Shown one piece after another: positions 5,460-37,891 of a stretch of 64,000 nt of DNA. This DNA comes from a virus (Duplodnaviria; Caudoviricetes), in IMG/VR virus record IMGVR_UViG_3300025909_000005; one strand, written 5' to 3'. Numbering within the stretch: the first letter of the stretch is position 1; each line of letters starts with the position of its first letter. The translations under genes were made by a program, and so were the position numbers. The notes beneath the pieces are model-generated. The model ran no database searches. It was given only the letters and a program-made list of their open reading frames with translations, and was not told where the DNA came from.

Positions 5460-6584
5460 ATGGCATCGAAAGTTCTGACCGTCTACATCGGTCGTTTCCA
5501 ACCACTTCACAACGGACATGTCCACGTTCTGACGAATGCGCTTCGCACGTCGGACCACACGCTGGTGCTCGTCGGCAGCTCGTTCCGTTCCCGCACGATC
5601 AAGAACCCCTTCACGTTCGACGAACGTAAGGAAGTGCTCATGGCCTGGCACGACGACTCGGAGCTCGACAAGAAGAGCCTGACCGTTCTGCCACTGCGTG
5701 ACCAGCCCTACTCAAACTCCAAGTGGATCGAGTCGGTGCAGAAGACGGTCCACAACTTCATGATCGAGAAGCATCTCGACCCCCGCACCACTGAAGTTCG
5801 CCTCACCGGTTCCGACCGTGACGAGTCGACCTGGTACCTGCAGGCCTTCCCGCAGTGGAAGCTGGCGCTCTGCGCTCCAGTTCCTGCCGGCCGCGACCTC
5901 TCAGCCACCAACCTCCGTCATGAGCTGTTCGGCGCCATGCTTGGCACGGCCATCAAGGACGACACCCCTCGCATCACGCAGTTCTTCATCGAGAAGTTCC
6001 GATTCGGCGAGGAGTTCGCGCTCCTCAAGGCCGAGTACGACTTCATCGAGAAGTACAAGAAGGCCTGGAAGGCAGCACCCTACGCACCCTACTTCCTGAC
6101 CGTCGACGGCGTCGTGATCCAATCCGGCCACGTGCTGGTCGTCCGCCGCGGCGCCCTCCCTGGCAAGGGCCTGCTCGCTCTGCCTGGTGGCTTCCTCGAT
6201 CAGAACGAGCGCCTCGCCGACGGCGTGGTTCGTGAACTCATCGAGGAAACGGGTCTGCGTCTGGCTGACGGCAAGAACGCCGAACGCATCACGAAGTCGA
6301 TGCTGCAGGGCGCCATCAAGGCGAAGGAAATCTTCGACGATCCGAATCGCTCGCTGCGTGGTCGCACCGTGACGACTGCCTACCTCATCCGCCTCGATGA
6401 CACCAAGCCGCTTCCGAAGGTGAAGGGCCAGTACGCACCGCTCCACGAGACCGGCGGCAAGCTCGTCGTCGAAACGGCTGACGCGTTCTGGATGCCGATC
6501 GCCGACGCGCTGCGCGACAGCTCGGTGTGGTTCGAGGACCACTACTACATTCTCGAGACGATGCTCGGCTTTGCGAAGGACTGA
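5460..6584 (+). CDS. nadM: bifunctional NMN adenylyltransferase / Nudix hydrolase (NadM-Nudix, NatV-like)
   Basis: GRFQPLHNGH (HxGH) motif; Nudix box PGGFLDQNERLADGVVRELIEETG. Confidence 0.93.
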   Translation: MASKVLTVYIGRFQPLHNGHVHVLTNALRTSDHTLVLVGSSFRSRTIKNPFTFDERKEVLMAWHDDSELDKKSLTVLPLRDQPYSNSKWIESVQKTVHNFMIEKHLDPRTTEVRLTGSDRDESTWYLQAFPQWKLALCAPVPAGRDLSATNLRHELFGAMLGTAIKDDTPRITQFFIEKFRFGEEFALLKAEYDFIEKYKKAWKAAPYAPYFLTVDGVVIQSGHVLVVRRGALPGKGLLALPGGFLDQNERLADGVVRELIEETGLRLADGKNAERITKSMLQGAIKAKEIFDDPNRSLRGRTVTTAYLIRLDDTKPLPKVKGQYAPLHETGGKLVVETADAFWMPIADALRDSSVWFEDHYYILETMLGFAKD

Positions 6585-8921: not shown

Positions 8922-8959
8922 GTGGGTCCTACTCTGTGATACAATGGAGTAGGACCCAC
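8922..8959 (+). promoter_or_regulatory. extended -10 promoter (TGTGATACAAT) in the loop of a perfect 13-bp inverted repeat
   Basis: GTGGGTCCTACTC / GAGTAGGACCCAC. Confidence 0.65.
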
Positions 8960-8971
8960 AATGGAGCAAGC

Positions 8972-10279
8972 ATGGCAGGATCACGAATCGCACCAGTACT
9001 CGCAGTGATTGGAGCTGGTTACGGTGACGAAGGCAAGGGCCTCTTCACCGACTACCTTGCCCGCAAGCACTCGAGATTCCAAGGCACGAAGGTTCCTCTC
9101 GTCATGAGAGGAAACGGTGGTGCACAAGCTGGCCACACTGTCGTCGATGGCACGAGGCGTCACGTCTTTGGCCACATCGGCTCAGGCACGATGGCTGGTG
9201 CTCGTACCTACCTCGCTGAGAACTTCATCGTCAACCCCATGGCCTTCGCTCCTGAACTGGAGAAGGTGAAGGCCCTTGGCATGGACCCGACCGTCTATGC
9301 CCACTCCAACTGCCGTGTCACAACGATCTTCGACATGGCGCTGAATTCCCTGGCCGAGCTCTTCCGAGGTCGCGCCCTTCACGGCTCATGCGGCTACGGC
9401 ATCAACGAGACCGTGACTCGCAACGAGGCGGGCTACTACCTCACGATGGCTGACATCCGTGCAGGCACCGCAGTTCTCGCAACCAAGCTCGAGGACATCC
9501 TTCGCGAGTACGTACCGACCCGGCTCTATGCCATCGGCTACCAGGAATGGGACCGCGACTCGGCCACCCCGCAAGTCAGAGCGCAGGCGGACGTCTACCT
9601 CAAGACCGTCATGGTGCAACAGGACGATCGTGCGGCCCACTGCAGCGCCCTCGCATCGAGGATGCAGAAGGACGTTCACTCGATCCACCTCTACGACCCG
9701 AAGTCGTTCACGTGGTCAGGCGAGCCGATCATCTACGAAGGTGCACAAGGCCTGCTGCTCGACGAGTACCACGGTACGTTCCCGCACGTGACCCGCTCCG
9801 TGACAGGCGTCGCCTCCGCTGTTCGTGCTGCCGCTGAAGCTGGACGCACTCAAGTTCAGCCGTACTACATCACGCGCTGCTACACGACCCGCCACGGTGC
9901 GGGTCCCCTGTACAAGGAAGGCGAGATCATCACCGATGGCGTCCGCTCGCTTCCTGATGAAACGAACATGCCGAACCAGCACCAGGGCACGCTGCGCTTC
10001 GCACCGCTGAATCTCGGCCACCTTCGGAACGCAATCGAGCGAGACATGGAACGTGCACGTCACGTCGGCCAGGTCTTCAACATCGAGGTCCTTCAGCCGA
10101 AGCTTGTCGTCACCCACCTCGACCAGCTCGGCCGCAAGGTGCAGTTTGCTGGATGGAGCTACCTTGTCGAGAGTGAAGCTGCTGCGAAAGCAATCGGCAA
10201 CTTCCTCGAGGTGTCCGTCTCGCACGTTTCCTACGGACCTGAAGCAAAGGATGTACGAGAGTTCACCTCTGAGCTATAA
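8972..10279 (+). CDS. purA: adenylosuccinate synthetase-like protein (divergent PurA family)
   Basis: GAGYGDEGKG P-loop, GAQAGHT, EGAQGLLLD, FPHVTRS, TRHGAGP. Confidence 0.85.
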   Translation: MAGSRIAPVLAVIGAGYGDEGKGLFTDYLARKHSRFQGTKVPLVMRGNGGAQAGHTVVDGTRRHVFGHIGSGTMAGARTYLAENFIVNPMAFAPELEKVKALGMDPTVYAHSNCRVTTIFDMALNSLAELFRGRALHGSCGYGINETVTRNEAGYYLTMADIRAGTAVLATKLEDILREYVPTRLYAIGYQEWDRDSATPQVRAQADVYLKTVMVQQDDRAAHCSALASRMQKDVHSIHLYDPKSFTWSGEPIIYEGAQGLLLDEYHGTFPHVTRSVTGVASAVRAAAEAGRTQVQPYYITRCYTTRHGAGPLYKEGEIITDGVRSLPDETNMPNQHQGTLRFAPLNLGHLRNAIERDMERARHVGQVFNIEVLQPKLVVTHLDQLGRKVQFAGWSYLVESEAAAKAIGNFLEVSVSHVSYGPEAKDVREFTSEL

Positions 10280-10338: not shown

Positions 10339-11811
10339 ATGTCTGAAAAACTCGTTCCCTACACCCCGAAGCGCCTCACGTACAACCCGCTGATGCGCAC
10401 GGACAGCTACAAGTTCTCGCACGCCTTCTCGTACCCGAGCAACGCCACTGGCATGTTCTCGTACATCGAGGCCCGCACCGGCGGCCAGGACATCATCGTC
10501 CCTTTCGGCCTGCAGATCTGGCTGAACGAACACCTCTCCATTCCCATCACCGCAGAGAACATCGACGAGGCCGAGCTCTTCGCAGCTGCCCACGGTGAAC
10601 CCTTCAGCCGCGCGGCCTGGGAGAAGGTCCTCAACAAGTATCACGGCTACATGCCCGTGACCATCCGCGCCGTTCCCGAAGGCACGCCGGTTCCGAGCGG
10701 CAACGCCCTCGTGACCATCCAGTGCGAGGACGAAGAGCTCGTCGGCGAAGTCAACAGGATTCTCGTCTTCTGGATCGCCTCGTACCTCGAGACGCAGATG
10801 CTGCGCGCCTACTGGTACCCGACCACTATCGCCACCCTCGACCGTGCGACGAAGCTGCAGATCAAGCGCTTCTACGAAATCGCCGGTGCCGACCTCAACT
10901 TCCTGCCCTTCTCGCTGCACGACTTCGGCGGCCGCGGCGTTTCGTCCGGCGAGACCGCTGCCATCGGCGGTGCCGCCCACCTGCCGTCCTTCATGGGCTC
11001 GGACACGGTCGAAGGCGTTCGCTACGCCAACTTCTACTACGACGAGGCCATGTCGGCCTTCTCCGTCCGTGCGACGGAGCACTCGGTCGCCTGCTCGTTC
11101 GGCCTGTCGGATGAAGACGAGATCGCGTACATCGCCCACCAGCTGAAGGTCTTCGAAGGCAATGGCAACATCATCTCGATGGTCGGCGACTCGAAGAGCA
11201 TCAAGCGCTTCGCAAAGCACCTGTGCACGACCTTCCGTGACCAGATCATGGACCTCCATGAGCGCCTCGGCATGAAGATCGTCTGCCGCCCGGACTCCGG
11301 CGATCCGCTCGAGATCATTCCGATGCTGCTGAAGATGTTCGCTGACGCGTTCCCGACCACGAAGACCAGCGCCGGCTACATCAAGCTCTACCCCGGCATC
11401 GGCATCCTGCAGGGCGACGGCGTCGATCGCATGACGATCCTCACCATCCTCGGCAACATCATGGCCATGAACTTCTCGCCGGACAACATCGTCTTCGGTT
11501 CCGGTGGCGGCCTGCTGCAGAAGGTCAACCGCGACACGTTCAAGTTCGCGATGAAGGCCTCTGCGATCAAGGTCGACGGCAAGTGGAAGGGCATCGTCAA
11601 GGACCCGGAAACCGACCCCGGCAAGAAGTCGAAGGAAGGCATCCTGACCCTCGCGACGAACGGCCTCGGTGACTACCTCACGGTGCGCCTCGACAACTCC
11701 GAGAACCCGTACCCGCGCGGCTATCACGATGCCATGGTCACGGTCTACGACAAGGGCCAGTTCTACAACCATACGACGCTGGCTGAAGTCCGCGCCCGCT
11801 GCGCGGTCTAA
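10339..11811 (+). CDS. nadV: nicotinamide phosphoribosyltransferase (NAMPT/NadV)
   Basis: TDSYKFSH, LHDFGGRG, ATEHS, RPDSGDP, ILQGDG, GSGGGLLQKVNRDT, KDPETDPGKKSK. Confidence 0.93.
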   Translation: MSEKLVPYTPKRLTYNPLMRTDSYKFSHAFSYPSNATGMFSYIEARTGGQDIIVPFGLQIWLNEHLSIPITAENIDEAELFAAAHGEPFSRAAWEKVLNKYHGYMPVTIRAVPEGTPVPSGNALVTIQCEDEELVGEVNRILVFWIASYLETQMLRAYWYPTTIATLDRATKLQIKRFYEIAGADLNFLPFSLHDFGGRGVSSGETAAIGGAAHLPSFMGSDTVEGVRYANFYYDEAMSAFSVRATEHSVACSFGLSDEDEIAYIAHQLKVFEGNGNIISMVGDSKSIKRFAKHLCTTFRDQIMDLHERLGMKIVCRPDSGDPLEIIPMLLKMFADAFPTTKTSAGYIKLYPGIGILQGDGVDRMTILTILGNIMAMNFSPDNIVFGSGGGLLQKVNRDTFKFAMKASAIKVDGKWKGIVKDPETDPGKKSKEGILTLATNGLGDYLTVRLDNSENPYPRGYHDAMVTVYDKGQFYNHTTLAEVRARCAV

Positions 11812-14968: not shown

Positions 14969-15613
14969 ATGCCAAACGCAGTTGTAAAGAGCTACGCCAA
15001 GAAGACTGGAAAGTCGCCTGAGCACATCGAAGGATGGTGGAAGGAGGCCGAGAAGGAAGCCAAGAAGAAGTTCCCAAAGAAGGGCCCTCACTACTGGGCG
15101 TACGTGAACGGCATCGTGAAGCGCCGTGGTGGCATCAAGGAGGTCATCGGCTTCCGTGACTTCGTTGACCTGCTCTCAGAAGAGGATGGCGGTGAGAAGG
15201 AGTCAGCGCTCTCCAAGATGTCCAAGGAACACGGTCCTGTCCTGGACAGGATCGAGAAGATCAAGGACCTTGGGCGCACCTTCGACAAGGCTCTCAAGGC
15301 TGACGGAGATGAGAAGGCGAAGGGCAACTACGCGCACTGGCTGAAGACGACCGACAAGTACCGAGTCGCCTACTTCACCGACACCGATCTCGACATTGAA
15401 ACCGTCCTCGTCTTCCGCGGCCACAAGTGCTTCGGCCTGGCATCGAAGAACGACAGCGACGCAATCATCGACTTCAAGTTCGTGCCAATGGAACGCAGCG
15501 ACTGGCAGGCGATCGAGGACTTCAGCTTGGACAACCTTGACTCCTCGGCTACAATCACTGATGAGAACCTCGACCACTATGTTGAGATGATTCTCCAGGC
15601 CACTCATAAATAA
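14969..15613 (+). CDS. hypothetical late protein
   Basis: RBS TAAGGA; basic N-terminal domain. Confidence 0.75.
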   Translation: MPNAVVKSYAKKTGKSPEHIEGWWKEAEKEAKKKFPKKGPHYWAYVNGIVKRRGGIKEVIGFRDFVDLLSEEDGGEKESALSKMSKEHGPVLDRIEKIKDLGRTFDKALKADGDEKAKGNYAHWLKTTDKYRVAYFTDTDLDIETVLVFRGHKCFGLASKNDSDAIIDFKFVPMERSDWQAIEDFSLDNLDSSATITDENLDHYVEMILQATHK

Positions 15614-15650
15614 ACCAGAGCACAGGTTGAGGCCTGTGCTATAATAGAAA

Positions 15651-16000
15651 CATACTGCAGCAATGCAGTTGTATTGTCGTAATTCGGCATGACTTGAAGG
15701 ATTTGAGACGCGGGTTCGATTCCCGCCGGCTCCACCACAAATCATCTTAGCAAGAACCTTACGCCAACGTTGTGGCAAGGAAAGCAGCAAGGGTGATTTG
15801 TCATGGGGCCGACCAGGCTATCGATCAGGTTACGGAGATGATTGACGCGACACGTCGTAGTGACGTTAAAAACTCGTCTAGTAAACGCAAACGACTCCAA
15901 CTACGCGATCGCCGCTTAATAACCGGCCCGCGCGCGGCATAAGCCACCGTGTAAAAGAATGAGCTAGGACGGACCCGAGGAGCAATCTTTGGGTCCGTCT
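15651..16000 (+). ncRNA. ssrA: two-piece (circularly permuted) tmRNA: acceptor piece ~15651-15737, intervening hairpin 15738-15804, coding piece from 15805; tag (A)ANDSNYAIAA
   Basis: T-arm and CGGCTCC-A-CCA lie upstream of GGGGCCG (7-bp acceptor with G3.U70); tag ORF GCA AAC GAC...GCC GCT TAA at 15887-15919; promoter TATAAT 15640; 3' hairpin 15968-15999. Confidence 0.92.
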
Positions 16001-16068
16001 GCCTTTCCAGGTCGATGGACCTGACTTTCGCTTCCATCGTAAATACGTTCAACTTCAAAGGAGTTGAG

Positions 16069-16503
16069 ATGATGACCCACCTTCTGGCCGCTGTAGTTGC
16101 AGTTGGCCTGGCCGCAGCAACACCCACACCTCGTCAACCCGTGTGGGATGACATAGCGAGTTCGAAGGTGTTCAAGATCAGTCTGGACCTAAAGTCGGTA
16201 GACGTCAAGGCAGACAACACGGTTCATTCTCAGCTGAAGGTCACGTACAACGTGCCCATCCCTGTGAAGGGAAAGAAGAAGACAGGGCACTACTACATCG
16301 AGCAGGTAACTGCAGACTGCGGTGCCGACAAGCTCGTCGTGACTGGTGCCACACTGTTCTCAAAGGACGGTGAGCCTTTGGCGCAAGACGACCACCTCAA
16401 CATGGACCTGCCAAACAACCACATCGATGGCACGTTTGTCACGAGCTTCATGGACCTCATGTGTAACGGCGGCAAAAATACGATTCCTGCGATCAACGTT
16501 TGA
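16069..16503 (+). CDS. secreted/periplasmic protein (adhesin-E-like fold, tentative)
   Basis: signal peptide, two Cys, late promoter. Confidence 0.7.
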   Translation: MMTHLLAAVVAVGLAAATPTPRQPVWDDIASSKVFKISLDLKSVDVKADNTVHSQLKVTYNVPIPVKGKKKTGHYYIEQVTADCGADKLVVTGATLFSKDGEPLAQDDHLNMDLPNNHIDGTFVTSFMDLMCNGGKNTIPAINV

Positions 16504-34702: not shown

Positions 34703-35148
34703 TGGACGCAATTCAACTCCTGATCGATGACCACAACGCGGTCAAAGAGAAGTTTGCGCAGTTCGAACACATCGACAACTTGAACAACGCCGACGAGAAG
34801 ATCACGCTGTCACACGAGATCTGTGCTGCTCTAGCCACTCACATGGCGATCGAGGAAGAGCTCTTCTACCCGGCTGCTCGTGCCCTCTTCGACGACAAGG
34901 ACGATGAACTCGTCGATGACGCCGTGAAGGAACACAAGCACGCTCGCTCGTTGATGAAGGACATTCAGACTCTTGAGGTCGGTGTTCGCCTCAATCTCGA
35001 GATGAAGGCGCTCAAGCTCATGATCGAAGACCACGTCAAGGACGAGGAAGGCACCATGTTCCCTAAGCTTCGTCAGCTTGGCATGGAGACGACCCAGCTC
35101 GGTGAAAAGATGGCTCAACGAAAGAAGGAACTTTCACCGAACGTGTGA
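34702..35148 (+). CDS. hemerythrin/HHE cation-binding domain protein
   Basis: LLIDDH, HMAIEEELFYP, EH, HVKDEEGTMFP. Confidence 0.88.
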   Translation: MDAIQLLIDDHNAVKEKFAQFEHIDNLNNADEKITLSHEICAALATHMAIEEELFYPAARALFDDKDDELVDDAVKEHKHARSLMKDIQTLEVGVRLNLEMKALKLMIEDHVKDEEGTMFPKLRQLGMETTQLGEKMAQRKKELSPNV

Positions 35149-35161
35149 TATAATCACCACA

Positions 35162-35564
35162 TGCTCAATCACCCGGCCTAACGCTGGCTTCACGGCTAGA
35201 ACAAGTTCGGGGCTGCACAGGACAGGGCTTGTCGCTCTGTGGAAGAAGCGGTCGTGCGTTGGAAACTGCCTTTAAACTCGAAAGGGTCGGAAGCTCCAGC
35301 AACGTTCAATCGTGGTCGATCTCTCGCGGTAACAGTGAGAGCTCTCTATTGCCACTTTAGCTTTGCTTGACCACAACGACTCCGCAGCAAGTCAAACAGA
35401 CCTCGTCGACGCTGTCCGCTGAGGGGTCGGGTTGATGCACCTATGATCCGGATTGGAACCCGGGGAGGACGTCGGTCACACGGCGTAGTCAAATGTTAGG
35501 AACCATCGGCGGTTGTGAATGCCTGATGGAGAAAGTAGAACCCCGGCTATGAGGTGATTGAGCA
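35162..35564 (+). ncRNA. rnpB: RNase P RNA, bacterial type A-like
   Basis: P1 TGCTCAATCACC/GGTGATTGAGCA; P2 CCTAAC/GTTAGG; P4 AG(T)TCGGGG/CCCCGGCT; P5 GCTGC/GCAGC followed by AAG; P6 GGACA/TGTCC; CR-IV AGTCAAATG; CR-V AGAACCCCGGCTA; own TATAAT promoter. Confidence 0.88.
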
Positions 35565-35706
35565 CCTTTTACAAACACATCTCCATAAAAGAAGCAGATG
35601 AAGCACTTGTCCCTGCTAAATACTAGCAAGGATGAAGTTGAGATTCTTCCCGAATGCCGGTTCCCTCACGGACCCGAGAAGCATTCCAACCTTTTAAGGA
35701 GATGAC

Positions 35707-37010: not shown

Positions 37011-37523
37011 ATGAAGAAGACTCTTGTAGCAGTCGCCGTAGCGGCATTGTCGCTCGGCGCGTTTGCGCAAACCGCACAGACGCAAACCATCCAAGTGCAG
37101 CACCACGAGGAACACCACGATCGCGATCGTCATGATGATCGTCGTGGTGACCGTGATGGCGATCATCGCGGTTGGCACCGTGACAACCACGGCAACTGGG
37201 TTCGTGACCTCGCAATCGGCGCCGGCATCGGCCTGTTGATCAACGGCATCGAACACAACAACGAAGCAGCTCAGCAAGATCAATGGCGTGACCGCGAAGA
37301 GTGGCGCCACCGCTACCATCGTTGGGATCGTGGCTACTACCTCGACGACAACGATCAGCCATACATCGAGCCAACTGTCACCGTGTCCTACGAGTGGGAC
37401 CGCTACGGTCGCAAAATCCGTGTAACGCGTACCCAAACTTGTGTAGAATCTACACTGGATGCGTATGACAACGCCGTGTGCACCCGCTGGGAAATCACGA
37501 CTGAACGTCGTTACGTTCGCTAA
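37011..37523 (+). CDS. secreted His/Arg/Asp-rich protein with glycine-zipper-like segment
   Basis: signal peptide, HHDRDRHDDRRGD, LAIGAGIGLLING. Confidence 0.75.
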   Translation: MKKTLVAVAVAALSLGAFAQTAQTQTIQVQHHEEHHDRDRHDDRRGDRDGDHRGWHRDNHGNWVRDLAIGAGIGLLINGIEHNNEAAQQDQWRDREEWRHRYHRWDRGYYLDDNDQPYIEPTVTVSYEWDRYGRKIRVTRTQTCVESTLDAYDNAVCTRWEITTERRYVR

Positions 37524-37582
37524 ATCTACGGAGGGGCTTTCGCCTCTCCTAGAAGTTCTCACTAACCATGGAGATGAATGAG

Positions 37583-37891
37583 ATGATCAAGACCCTTATT
37601 GTAGCTGCGCTTGCAGCAATGTCCCTCGGCGCAGTCGCTGCCGAAACCGTCGTCACAAAGACGGTGGACACCCACCATGAAATGCGTGATCAAGGTCGCC
37701 ATGAAGGCCACCCATACCGCCATGACATGGGCCACCACTACGGCTGGCGCCATCACCGTCACCACCGCCACGTAGTGGTCGTGCGTGACACGGAAGTGCG
37801 TCACATGCACCGTCACCACCGCCATCACATGATGCGCGACGGCAGCGTTGATCGCCATGTCGTTGTAACGAAGGACGTGCACTCGCACTAA
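37583..37891 (+). CDS. secreted His-rich protein
   Basis: signal peptide, about 25% His. Confidence 0.7.
   Translation: MIKTLIVAALAAMSLGAVAAETVVTKTVDTHHEMRDQGRHEGHPYRHDMGHHYGWRHHRHHRHVVVVRDTEVRHMHRHHRHHMMRDGSVDRHVVVTKDVHSH

What the first reader, a model, noticed from the sequence alone, without database searches (positions are those of the whole stretch)
15627..16000. Circularly permuted two-piece tmRNA in a phage
The 3' tRNA-like half (T-arm, CGGCTCC-A-CCA ending at 15737) precedes the 5' half (GGGGCCG at 15805). They are joined by a 67-nt intervening segment that folds on itself (CAAATCATC/GGTGATTTG). Helix 2 (CAGGTTA/TGACTTG) links the pieces, and the tag ANDSNYAIAA resembles proteobacterial tags. 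Permuted tmRNAs are known from Alphaproteobacteria, some Betaproteobacteria and cyanobacteria. A phage copy needs RNase P to mature, and this phage appears to encode one.
Basis: partly seen in the sequence, partly recalled or inferred. Interest (0 to 1): 0.8.

Follow-up and report, generated by a model that had tools for sequence, protein, structure and literature searches.

The report
Phage-encoded two-piece tmRNA gene
This giant soil phage carries a complete, conserved gene for a split ("two-piece") tmRNA, the RNA that frees stalled ribosomes and tags the unfinished protein; the call is correct, but such genes are already known in many phages, so this is a new example of a known kind.

Summary
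ARAGORN calls a permuted tmRNA at 15645-16010 (+) with the tag ANDSNYAIAA and two stop codons. Rfam matches tmRNA_permuted (102 bits, cut-off 47) and beta_tmRNA (91.9 bits, cut-off 84).

All parts are present:
- acceptor stem with G3:U70, A73 and an encoded CCA
- T-arm
- helix P2a, 7 of 7 pairs
- 67-nt intervening hairpin
- tag frame
- a PK2-type pseudoknot with a compensating base change

Against a soil-metagenome relative (L066), the structural parts differ at 2 of 324 positions. The flanks differ by 3.6-7.4%. The other 10 changes fall in 28 nt around the tag.

This is not a new kind. Buchholz et al. 2022 listed 53 two-piece forms among 133 unique phage tmRNAs. I found beta-type permuted tmRNAs in the cultured phages XacN1, Marzo and JGB6 and in many IMG/VR contigs. 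This scan has also reported phage two-piece tmRNAs on other DNA many times.

- The conserved helix-2 register is 15700-15706 with 15825-15831.
- Rfam finds no RNase P RNA at 35149-35564. P1- and P4-like pairings are visible there by eye only.

No smpB lies in the window, so host SmpB is presumably used. The host is unknown.

The parts
15637..15645 (+). Probable promoter: extended -10 element TGCTATAAT. The start site is inferred near 15652.
   Evidence: Read from the sequence. It is invariant in the relatives L066 and L068. The consensus scan found no -35/-10 pair here, so this is an inference.
15654..15669 (+). 5' hairpin of the acceptor piece (6-bp stem, 4-nt loop). It is extra relative to the Rfam beta consensus.
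   Evidence: The single change in L066 turns A-U into G-U and keeps the pair.
15675..15737 (+). Core of the acceptor piece. Distal P2 strand 15675-15683; P2a strand 15700-15706; GAC 15707-15709; T-arm 15710-15726; acceptor 3' strand 15727-15733; discriminator A 15734; encoded CCA 15735-15737.
   Evidence: Rfam alignments, sequence, anchored P2a pairing 7 of 7.
15738..15804 (+). Intervening segment, removed on maturation. An 11-bp closing stem (15738-15748 with 15790-15800) is followed by a 4-nt single-stranded leader, TCAT, just before G1. It holds no ORF.
   Evidence: In 16 of the 21 distinct sequences (window and L066 included) the stem is 8 bp or longer, built from different sequences, and it always ends 4-6 nt before G1.
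15805..15866 (+). 5' part of the coding piece. Acceptor 5' strand GGGGCCG 15805-15811 (G3 pairs with U70); D-loop analogue 15812-15824; P2a strand 15825-15831; distal P2 strand 15841-15852; PK1 hairpin 15852-15866.
15887..15922 (+). Tag reading frame. The resume codon GCA is at 15887; ten codons give ANDSNYAIAA, followed by TAA TAA.
   Evidence: ARAGORN. The frame, AND..., F/Y-AIAA and the double stop are kept in L068 (ANDSNFAIAA) and L066 (ANDNLFAIAA).
15932..15965 (+). PK2-type pseudoknot. CGCGG (15932-15936) pairs with the loop bases CCGTG (15947-15951). The hairpin stem is 15942-15946 with 15960-15965.
   Evidence: Motif listing across relatives. The family consensus is CGGGG with CCTTG. 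The window changes both sides of the third pair (G-U becomes C-G). L038 and L013 show other two-sided changes.
15964..16003 (+). 3' terminal hairpin, a long G+C-rich stem followed by a weak U tract. It probably ends the transcript or protects its 3' end.
   Evidence: MFE fold. It aligns with the terminal stem of RF01850 and is invariant in L066 and L068.

Best explanation
This is a functional phage ssrA gene of the circularly permuted (two-piece) form. Its own promoter makes a precursor of about 350 nt, in which the 3' tRNA-like half lies ahead of the 5' half. The two halves fold into an alanine-tRNA-like domain: a 7-bp acceptor stem with G3:U70, A73-CCA and a T-arm, held together by helix P2. 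The 67-nt hairpin between CCA and G1 is cut out. RNase P cleaves 5' of G15805, and tRNA 3'-end nucleases trim back to the encoded CCA at 15737. The products are an acceptor piece of about 70-85 nt and a coding piece of about 200 nt that stay base-paired. The RNA is charged with alanine by host AlaRS and delivered by host SmpB and EF-Tu. It enters ribosomes stalled at the ends of broken or stop-less mRNAs during infection and switches them to the tag frame, which adds (A)ANDSNYAIAA and terminates. That frees the ribosome and marks the peptide for the host's ClpXP-type proteases. Shown here: the gene anatomy, family membership, covariation and purifying selection. Inferred from the literature on tmRNA: processing, charging, the use of host SmpB and tagging.
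For: ARAGORN makes a permuted tmRNA call with a tag. RF04321 scores 102 bits and RF01850 scores 91.9 bits, both over their cut-offs. G3:U70, A73 and CCA are read directly from the sequence. P2a pairs 7 of 7 in the window, and 18 of 22 viral sequences also pair 7 of 7, with 18 distinct duplexes among the 22; slid controls give about 2.8 pairs. The closing stem of the intervening segment is conserved in place but not in sequence. PK2 carries a two-sided compensating change. The precursor folds with z = -4.7. Against L066, 2 of 324 structural positions differ, one of them A-U to G-U and the other a loop indel. The flanks differ by 3.6-7.4%. The tag frame and its conserved ends are kept in three variants. 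The same kind of gene occurs in cultured phages and in many viral contigs. Literature: two-piece tmRNA works in Caulobacter, and its precursor is thought to be processed by RNase P and tRNase Z (PMC3985003); phage two-piece tmRNAs are reported in PMC9004378.
Against: There are no expression, processing or tagging data. The beta_tmRNA score is only 8 bits over its cut-off. The middle part of P2 has non-canonical positions in the Rfam alignment. The host is unknown, so it is unknown whether host SmpB and AlaRS accept this RNA. No smpB lies in the window, and the rest of the genome, more than 350 kb, could not be searched.
Confidence: 0.8

Rival explanations
1. Read-through buffer. This is the same molecule and the same chemistry, but its specific job is to clear ribosomes that run past stop codons because of the phage's own two amber-suppressor tRNAs, which begin 660 nt downstream (16667, 16951).
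For: The two CUA tRNAs lie next to the tmRNA. XacN1 has two CUA tRNAs about 1 kb from its permuted tmRNA, and L038 has CUA and UUA tRNAs about 4 kb away. Of 49 viral contigs with this type of suppressor tRNA, 9 have a permuted tmRNA over the cut-off, including 5 of 16 near-complete ones. For comparison, 2.3% of all phage genomes carry any tmRNA (PMC9004378). Suppressor tRNAs are known to create tmRNA substrates (Ueda et al. 2002, as cited in PMC3985003).
Against: Only 1 of 57 suppressor-tRNA loci has a tmRNA within the fetched flank, and that one is one-piece. No suppressor tRNA was seen in the fetched flanks of many tmRNA loci, such as L007, L013 and L064.
Confidence: 0.12
2. Competitor or re-tagger. 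The phage RNA displaces host tmRNA from SmpB and gives rescued peptides a phage-chosen tag (...AIAA), changing which proteins are degraded or how fast, rather than simply adding rescue capacity.
For: The tag interior is a hot spot. Ten of the 12 differences from L066 lie in 28 nt around the resume codon and tag, and they turn SNY into NLF. A tRNA-like-domain-only phage molecule (DS6A) is reported to inhibit tmRNA (PMC4131195, PMC11915505).
Against: The tag keeps the canonical AND start and the A-x-A-A end of degradation tags. The molecule is complete and not a bare tRNA-like domain. The hot spot may instead be a recombination patch or relaxed constraint.
Confidence: 0.06
3. Non-functional cargo: a recently captured host gene or a leftover integration-site fragment.
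For: Phages often carry 3' fragments of ssrA at attachment sites. Many of the 40 T-arm matches in IMG/VR lie at contig ends.
Against: Both halves, the tag frame and the promoter are all present. The structural parts are about 6- to 12-fold more conserved than the flanks. No bacterial sequence in my sample is as close as the viral ones, and the window sits in a starred all-viral clade. The gene lies inside a large lytic-type phage region with 28 tRNAs.
Confidence: 0.02

Closest known systems
Beta-type permuted tmRNAs of cultured phages: Xanthomonas phage XacN1 (AP018399.1, about 37201-37621), Stenotrophomonas phage Marzo and the Menderavirus group (annotated as tmRNA), and Xanthomonas phage JGB6
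   Same: The gene order is the same, and the best Rfam model is the same, RF01850 (107.8, 94.6 and 94.7 bits against 91.9 here). Each has a closing stem in the intervening segment and an AND-type tag, and each sits among tRNA genes. XacN1 also has two CUA suppressor tRNAs next to it.
   Different: Outside the tRNA-like domain the sequences are only distantly related. The tags differ: ANANTFDYALAA, VAANDDSYTVRIAA and VTANDSYFEVALAA. The window's nearest relatives are uncultured soil and viral contigs (L068, L066, L038/L069, L001).
Two-piece tmRNA of Rhodocyclales (the 'third lineage', Sharkady and Williams 2004; Rfam RF01850 beta_tmRNA)
   Same: It shares the permuted order, the P2 geometry, the PK2 loop motif and the tag style. 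The window scores over the family cut-off.
   Different: The 50 Rhodocyclales sequences form one tight cluster that excludes the window. Their intervening segments are 23-48 nt against 67 nt here. The window's PK2 loop has diverged: CCGTGTAAAAGAA against CCTTGTNACCCAA.
Two-piece tmRNAs of marine T4-like phages (Methylophilales phage Melnitz, pelagimyophages) and of Caulobacter phages (CcrPW, CcrSC, CcrBL9)
   Same: These are also phage-borne, permuted and located near tRNA genes. They are reported in PMC9004378 and its Table S1.
   Different: They are of the alpha type (CcrPW: RF01849, 66.8 bits). Melnitz carries a glutamine riboswitch, which Rfam did not find here.
One-piece tmRNA (SsrA, RF00023), for example in E. 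coli and mycobacteriophage Bxz1
   Same: It has the same tRNA-like domain, resume-codon context and degradation-tag logic. With the charged alanine, the window's tag reads AANDSNYAIAA against E. coli's AANDENYALAA (E. coli tag quoted from general knowledge).
   Different: The gene here is not colinear. The mature RNA should consist of two base-paired pieces, and it has fewer pseudoknots.

Membership tests
tmRNA, permuted / two-piece form (Rfam RF04321) | Covariance-model score at or above the gathering score | tested here: met
   102 bits against a cut-off of 47, E 9.5e-19, full model 1-213.
tmRNA, permuted / two-piece form (Rfam RF04321) | Alanine-tRNA-like domain: 7-bp acceptor stem with G3:U70, discriminator A, 3' CCA, and a T-arm with a GGUUCGAUUCC-type loop | tested here: met
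   GGGGCCG (15805-15811) pairs 7 of 7 with CGGCTCC (15727-15733), and the third pair is G-U. A is at 15734, CCA at 15735-15737 and the T-arm at 15710-15726.
tmRNA, permuted / two-piece form (Rfam RF04321) | Permuted order: the 3' acceptor half lies upstream of the 5' half, joined by a segment that must be removed | tested here: met
   CCA ends at 15737 and G1 is at 15805. The 67-nt hairpin between them has a closing stem conserved in position across relatives.
tmRNA, permuted / two-piece form (Rfam RF04321) | Helix P2 joins the two pieces next to the tRNA-like domain | tested here: met
   15700-15706 pairs with 15825-15831, 7 of 7. Across 22 viral sequences the mean is 6.8 of 7 with 18 distinct duplexes, against 2.8 for slid controls.
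tmRNA, permuted / two-piece form (Rfam RF04321) | Tag reading frame with an alanine resume codon, a hydrophobic ...AA end and a stop codon | tested here: met
   GCA at 15887, ANDSNYAIAA, then TAA TAA. The frame is kept in two variants.
tmRNA, permuted / two-piece form (Rfam RF04321) | Processing into two pieces, alanylation, SmpB binding and tagging in vivo | not testable with these tools
   This needs RNA end mapping and proteomics in the (unknown) host.
beta_tmRNA (Rfam RF01850) | Model score at or above the gathering score, including the 3' hairpins after the tag | tested here: met
   91.9 bits against 84, full model 1-331. This is a narrow margin.
beta_tmRNA (Rfam RF01850) | PK2: a G-rich run after the tag pairs with the CCUUG of a conserved hairpin loop | tested here: met
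   CGCGG (15932-15936) pairs with CCGTG (15947-15951), with a two-sided change relative to the consensus CGGGG with CCTTG.
beta_tmRNA (Rfam RF01850) | Belongs to the chromosomal betaproteobacterial (Rhodocyclales) lineage | tested here: not met
   In the tree the window lies in a starred all-viral clade, and the 50 Rhodocyclales sequences cluster apart. So it has the beta-type architecture but does not belong to the bacterial clade.
Bacterial RNase P RNA (RF00010/RF00011), for the companion claim at 35149-35564 | Match to a curated RNase P model | tested here: not met
   No Rfam match of any family at 35000-35700, even at E<=10, and none in 10000-40000 at E<=1.
Bacterial RNase P RNA (RF00010/RF00011), for the companion claim at 35149-35564 | P1 helix joining the two ends, and P4 formed by the CR-I and CR-V motifs | tested here: inconclusive
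   By eye, 35163-35173 is the exact complement of 35553-35563. AAGTTCGGGGC (35203-35213) and AGAACCCCGGCT (35537-35548) resemble the P4 strands, with one extra G:C pair. The reference motifs were recalled from memory, and I ran no covariation test.

The most novel reading that the evidence does not exclude
The 'betaproteobacterial' two-piece tmRNA architecture may be mainly a phage-borne lineage. Viral copies are far more diverse than the single tight Rhodocyclales cluster, and they occur in phages of hosts whose own tmRNA is one-piece by general knowledge (Xanthomonas, Stenotrophomonas). If so, the chromosomal Rhodocyclales form may descend from a phage gene that replaced the native one-piece ssrA, rather than the reverse.
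Probability: 0.15. Interest if true: 0.6.

Novelty: new member of a known kind. Interest (0 to 1): 0.22.

Why it matters
This adds a well-documented soil example to the list of phage tmRNAs. It shows that the gene is under strong selection in a giant phage that also carries about 28 tRNAs, suppressor tRNAs and tRNA-maintenance genes. That fits the view that large phages bring much of their own translation-upkeep equipment.

It does not change what is known about tmRNA. Two side results may be worth a specialist's time:
- Changes between near-identical phages are concentrated in the tag.
- It remains open whether the beta-type two-piece form arose in phages or in Rhodocyclales.

Tried and rejected
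1. Searching for relatives through the upstream protein (14969-15613) in IMG/VR found nothing. Megablast of the locus against cultured phages also found nothing.

2. A search of the whole genome for smpB or RNase P was not possible, because no genome is held for this window.

3. SmpB. A 5-sequence HMM run against the six-frame window gave a best E of 3.6, so smpB is absent from these 64 kb. My first attempt used wrongly chosen ORFs and was discarded. PF01668 is also absent from the complete genomes of XacN1, Marzo and CcrPW and from two IMG/VR contigs.

4. Rooting the permuted-tmRNA tree with 13 one-piece sequences left it unresolved. AU tests rejected nothing: all permuted sequences as one clade, p = 0.49; viral sequences as one clade, p = 0.20; bacterial sequences as one clade, p = 0.10. 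The direction of transfer therefore stays open.

5. Local linkage between suppressor tRNAs and tmRNA is not general. Only 1 of 57 loci shows it.

7. The flanking genes show no link to trans-translation. The only Pfam hit is a marginal Adhesin_E match for 16069-16503, and PHROGs gave nothing for the two neighbours.

8. Sharkady and Williams 2004 (PMC516066) is not held in the library, so I could not check features of the beta lineage against it.

9. Host identity was not established.

Full report
**Observation**

The stretch reads exactly as described. The T-arm lies at 15710-15726, followed by CGGCTCC (15727-15733), a discriminator A (15734) and CCA (15735-15737). Next come 67 nt (15738-15804), then GGGGCCG (15805-15811). 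The two heptamers pair 7 of 7, and the third pair is G-U, the alanine identity pair.

ARAGORN reports a permuted tmRNA at 15645-16010 on the + strand, with the tag ANDSNYAIAA and two stop codons. Rfam reports tmRNA_permuted RF04321 at 15675-15919 (102 bits, cut-off 47, E 9.5e-19). It also reports beta_tmRNA RF01850 at 15573-16003 (91.9 bits, cut-off 84, E 1.8e-26). Both matches cover the full model.

**Context**

The window carries 28 tRNA genes, two of them with a CUA anticodon and starting 660 nt downstream of the tmRNA. PHROG matches include a helicase, nicotinamide phosphoribosyltransferase, a cytidyltransferase/Nudix protein and a PurZ-like synthetase. The nearest cultured relatives are remote jumbo phages, at about 30% protein identity. 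There is no nucleotide match among cultured phages. No whole genome is held for the window. Earlier notes of this scan call it a giant soil phage.

**Anatomy**

- **Promoter.** An extended -10 element, TGCTATAAT (15637-15645), precedes the gene. It is invariant in the two close relatives. Its promoter role is my inference.
- **Acceptor piece.** It has a small 5' hairpin (15654-15669), a distal P2 strand (15675-15683), a P2a strand (15700-15706), GAC, the T-arm, the acceptor 3' strand and ACCA.
- **Intervening segment.** It is a hairpin with an 11-bp closing stem that starts immediately after CCA. Four unpaired bases (TCAT) lie before G1.
- **Coding piece.** It has the acceptor 5' strand, a D-loop analogue ending in TCGA (15824), the P2a strand (15825-15831), a distal P2 strand (15841-15852), a PK1 hairpin (15852-15866), and the resume codon GCA at 15887 preceded by GUAAAC. 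Ten codons and TAA TAA follow. After them comes a PK2-type pseudoknot, in which 15932-15936 pairs with loop bases 15947-15951 of a hairpin at 15942-15965. A long terminal hairpin ends near 16003.
- **Fold.** The whole precursor folds better than every shuffle, with z = -4.7.

**Comparative support**

An exact-pattern scan of metagenomes found two syntenic soil contigs. L068 is 99.5% identical over the gene and L066 is 96.8% identical.

Against L066 the flanks differ by 7.4% upstream and about 3.6% downstream. Within the 352-nt gene there are 12 differences, and 10 of them lie within 28 nt (15876-15903), just upstream of the resume codon and inside the tag. The other 324 nt carry only two changes. 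One converts A-U to G-U in the 5' hairpin. The other is a one-base deletion in a loop of the intervening segment. The structural RNA is therefore under strong constraint.

The tag interior changes quickly: ANDSNYAIAA, ANDSNFAIAA and ANDNLFAIAA. The frame, the AND start, the aromatic-AIAA end and the double stop are all kept.

Among more distant viral sequences:
- The P2a helix is defined purely by anchors: the 7 nt before GAC plus T-arm, against the 7 nt after TCGA. It pairs 7 of 7 in 18 of the 22 sequences, and the 22 use 18 different duplex sequences. Slid controls give 2.8 pairs.
- The intervening closing stem is 8 bp or longer in 16 of the 21 distinct sequences (window and L066 included). 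It always begins 0-2 nt after CCA and ends 4-6 nt before G1.
- PK2 shows two-sided changes, including one specific to the window.

**Is it new?**

No. Buchholz et al. 2022 (PMC9004378) surveyed 18,146 phage genomes. They found tmRNA in 402 of them, with 133 unique structures, 53 of which ARAGORN called two-piece. Their Table S1 lists permuted forms in Stenotrophomonas, Caulobacter, Synechococcus and Streptomyces phages. The 2025 tmRNA database holds 79 phage sequences (PMC11915505).

I confirmed beta-type permuted genes in three cultured phages:
- Xanthomonas jumbo phage XacN1: 107.8 bits, not annotated in the record, about 1 kb from two CUA tRNAs.
- Stenotrophomonas phage Marzo: 94.6 bits, annotated as tmRNA.
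- Xanthomonas phage JGB6: 94.7 bits, not annotated.

Caulobacter phage CcrPW carries an alpha-type gene instead. More than a dozen IMG/VR contigs also carry beta-type genes. This scan itself has many earlier reports of phage two-piece tmRNAs on other DNA. The window is a new member of a known kind.

**Lineage**

No bacterial sequence in my sample is as close to the window as the viral ones. The bacterial sample was 120 pattern matches, mostly Rhodocyclales.

In a tree of 73 permuted sequences, the window groups with L068, L066, L038/L069 and L001 in a starred all-viral clade. The 50 Rhodocyclales sequences form one short-branched cluster, and the viral sequences are much more diverse. Bacterial intervening segments are 23-48 nt and viral ones are 31-111 nt.

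Adding one-piece outgroups did not resolve the root, and AU tests rejected no arrangement. Whether phages took the gene from Rhodocyclales or the reverse stays open. Both sequence samples were selected by exact patterns in the tRNA-like domain, which biases them.

**Partners**

SmpB is absent from the window. It is also absent from the complete genomes of XacN1, Marzo and CcrPW, so phage tmRNAs of this type presumably use host SmpB. The rest of this phage's genome could not be searched.

On RNase P, Rfam finds nothing at 35000-35700 even at E<=10. It also has P4-like strands with a matching extra G and C. I regard it as plausible but unverified here. Host RNase P would in any case suffice. The literature says that tmRNA 5' ends are made by RNase P and that permuted precursors are probably processed by RNase P and tRNase Z (PMC3985003).

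**Possible special role**

Suppressor tRNAs create tmRNA substrates by read-through (Ueda et al. 2002, cited in PMC3985003). Here the tmRNA sits beside two CUA tRNAs, as in XacN1, and L038 has suppressor tRNAs about 4 kb from its tmRNA.

However, only 1 of 57 IMG/VR loci with this type of suppressor tRNA has a tmRNA nearby. At the level of whole contigs, 9 of 49 have a permuted tmRNA over the cut-off, including 5 of 16 near-complete ones. I keep this as a minor rival reading.

**Verdict**

This is a genuine, conserved, probably functional phage two-piece tmRNA of the beta architecture. It is a correct call, with modest novelty.

Noticed in passing
window 15876-15903, against L066 and L068: This is a hot spot of change. 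Ten of the 12 differences between the window and L066 within the tmRNA gene fall in 28 nt covering the 11 nt before the resume codon and tag codons 4-6 (SNY becomes NLF). It could be a recombination patch or fast tag evolution.
   Followed up: partly
L063 1439-1859 (AP018399.1, about 37201-37621); L065 1452-1860 (OQ436456.1); L062 1473-1888 (MH588545.1): The permuted tmRNA genes of Xanthomonas phages XacN1 and JGB6 and of Caulobacter phage CcrPW are not annotated in these GenBank records. In JGB6 a 'hypothetical protein' CDS on the opposite strand overlaps the gene.
   Followed up: partly
Rfam finds nothing even at E<=10. However, the ends form an exact 11-bp P1-like helix (35163-35173 with 35553-35563), and P4-like strands are present (35203-35213 and 35537-35548).
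   Followed up: partly
window 8936-10279: This ORF matches phrog_1211, named '2-aminooxy adenylosuccinate synthetase' (PurZ-like), at E 3.6e-57. It may hint at a 2-aminoadenine (Z-base) genome. Nampt (10339-11811) and an Nmnat/Nudix protein (5460-6584) lie close by.
   Followed up: no
window 16069-16503: The gene just downstream of the tmRNA encodes a small protein with a signal-peptide-like start and a marginal Pfam Adhesin_E match (24.3 bits against a cut-off of 23.7). It is 96% conserved in L066 and L068.
   Followed up: no
window 15620-15639: A 7-bp hairpin (GCACAGG ... CCTGTGC) lies between the stop codon of the upstream gene and the tmRNA -10 element. L066 changes only a loop base. It may end the upstream transcript.
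   Followed up: no
L129 (Azohydromonas caseinilytica, NZ_JABBFW010000035.1): This Burkholderiales genome carries a beta-type permuted tmRNA that falls outside the Rhodocyclales cluster, among the viral sequences. It may be a prophage-borne or second copy.
   Followed up: no
L247-L255 (IMG/VR contigs of 40-608 kb): Nine of 49 viral contigs that carry a CUA suppressor tRNA of the window's type also carry a permuted tmRNA elsewhere on the contig. Their tags are diverse, for example ANDAFYGEMRLAA and ANDNVAPSYALAA.
   Followed up: partly
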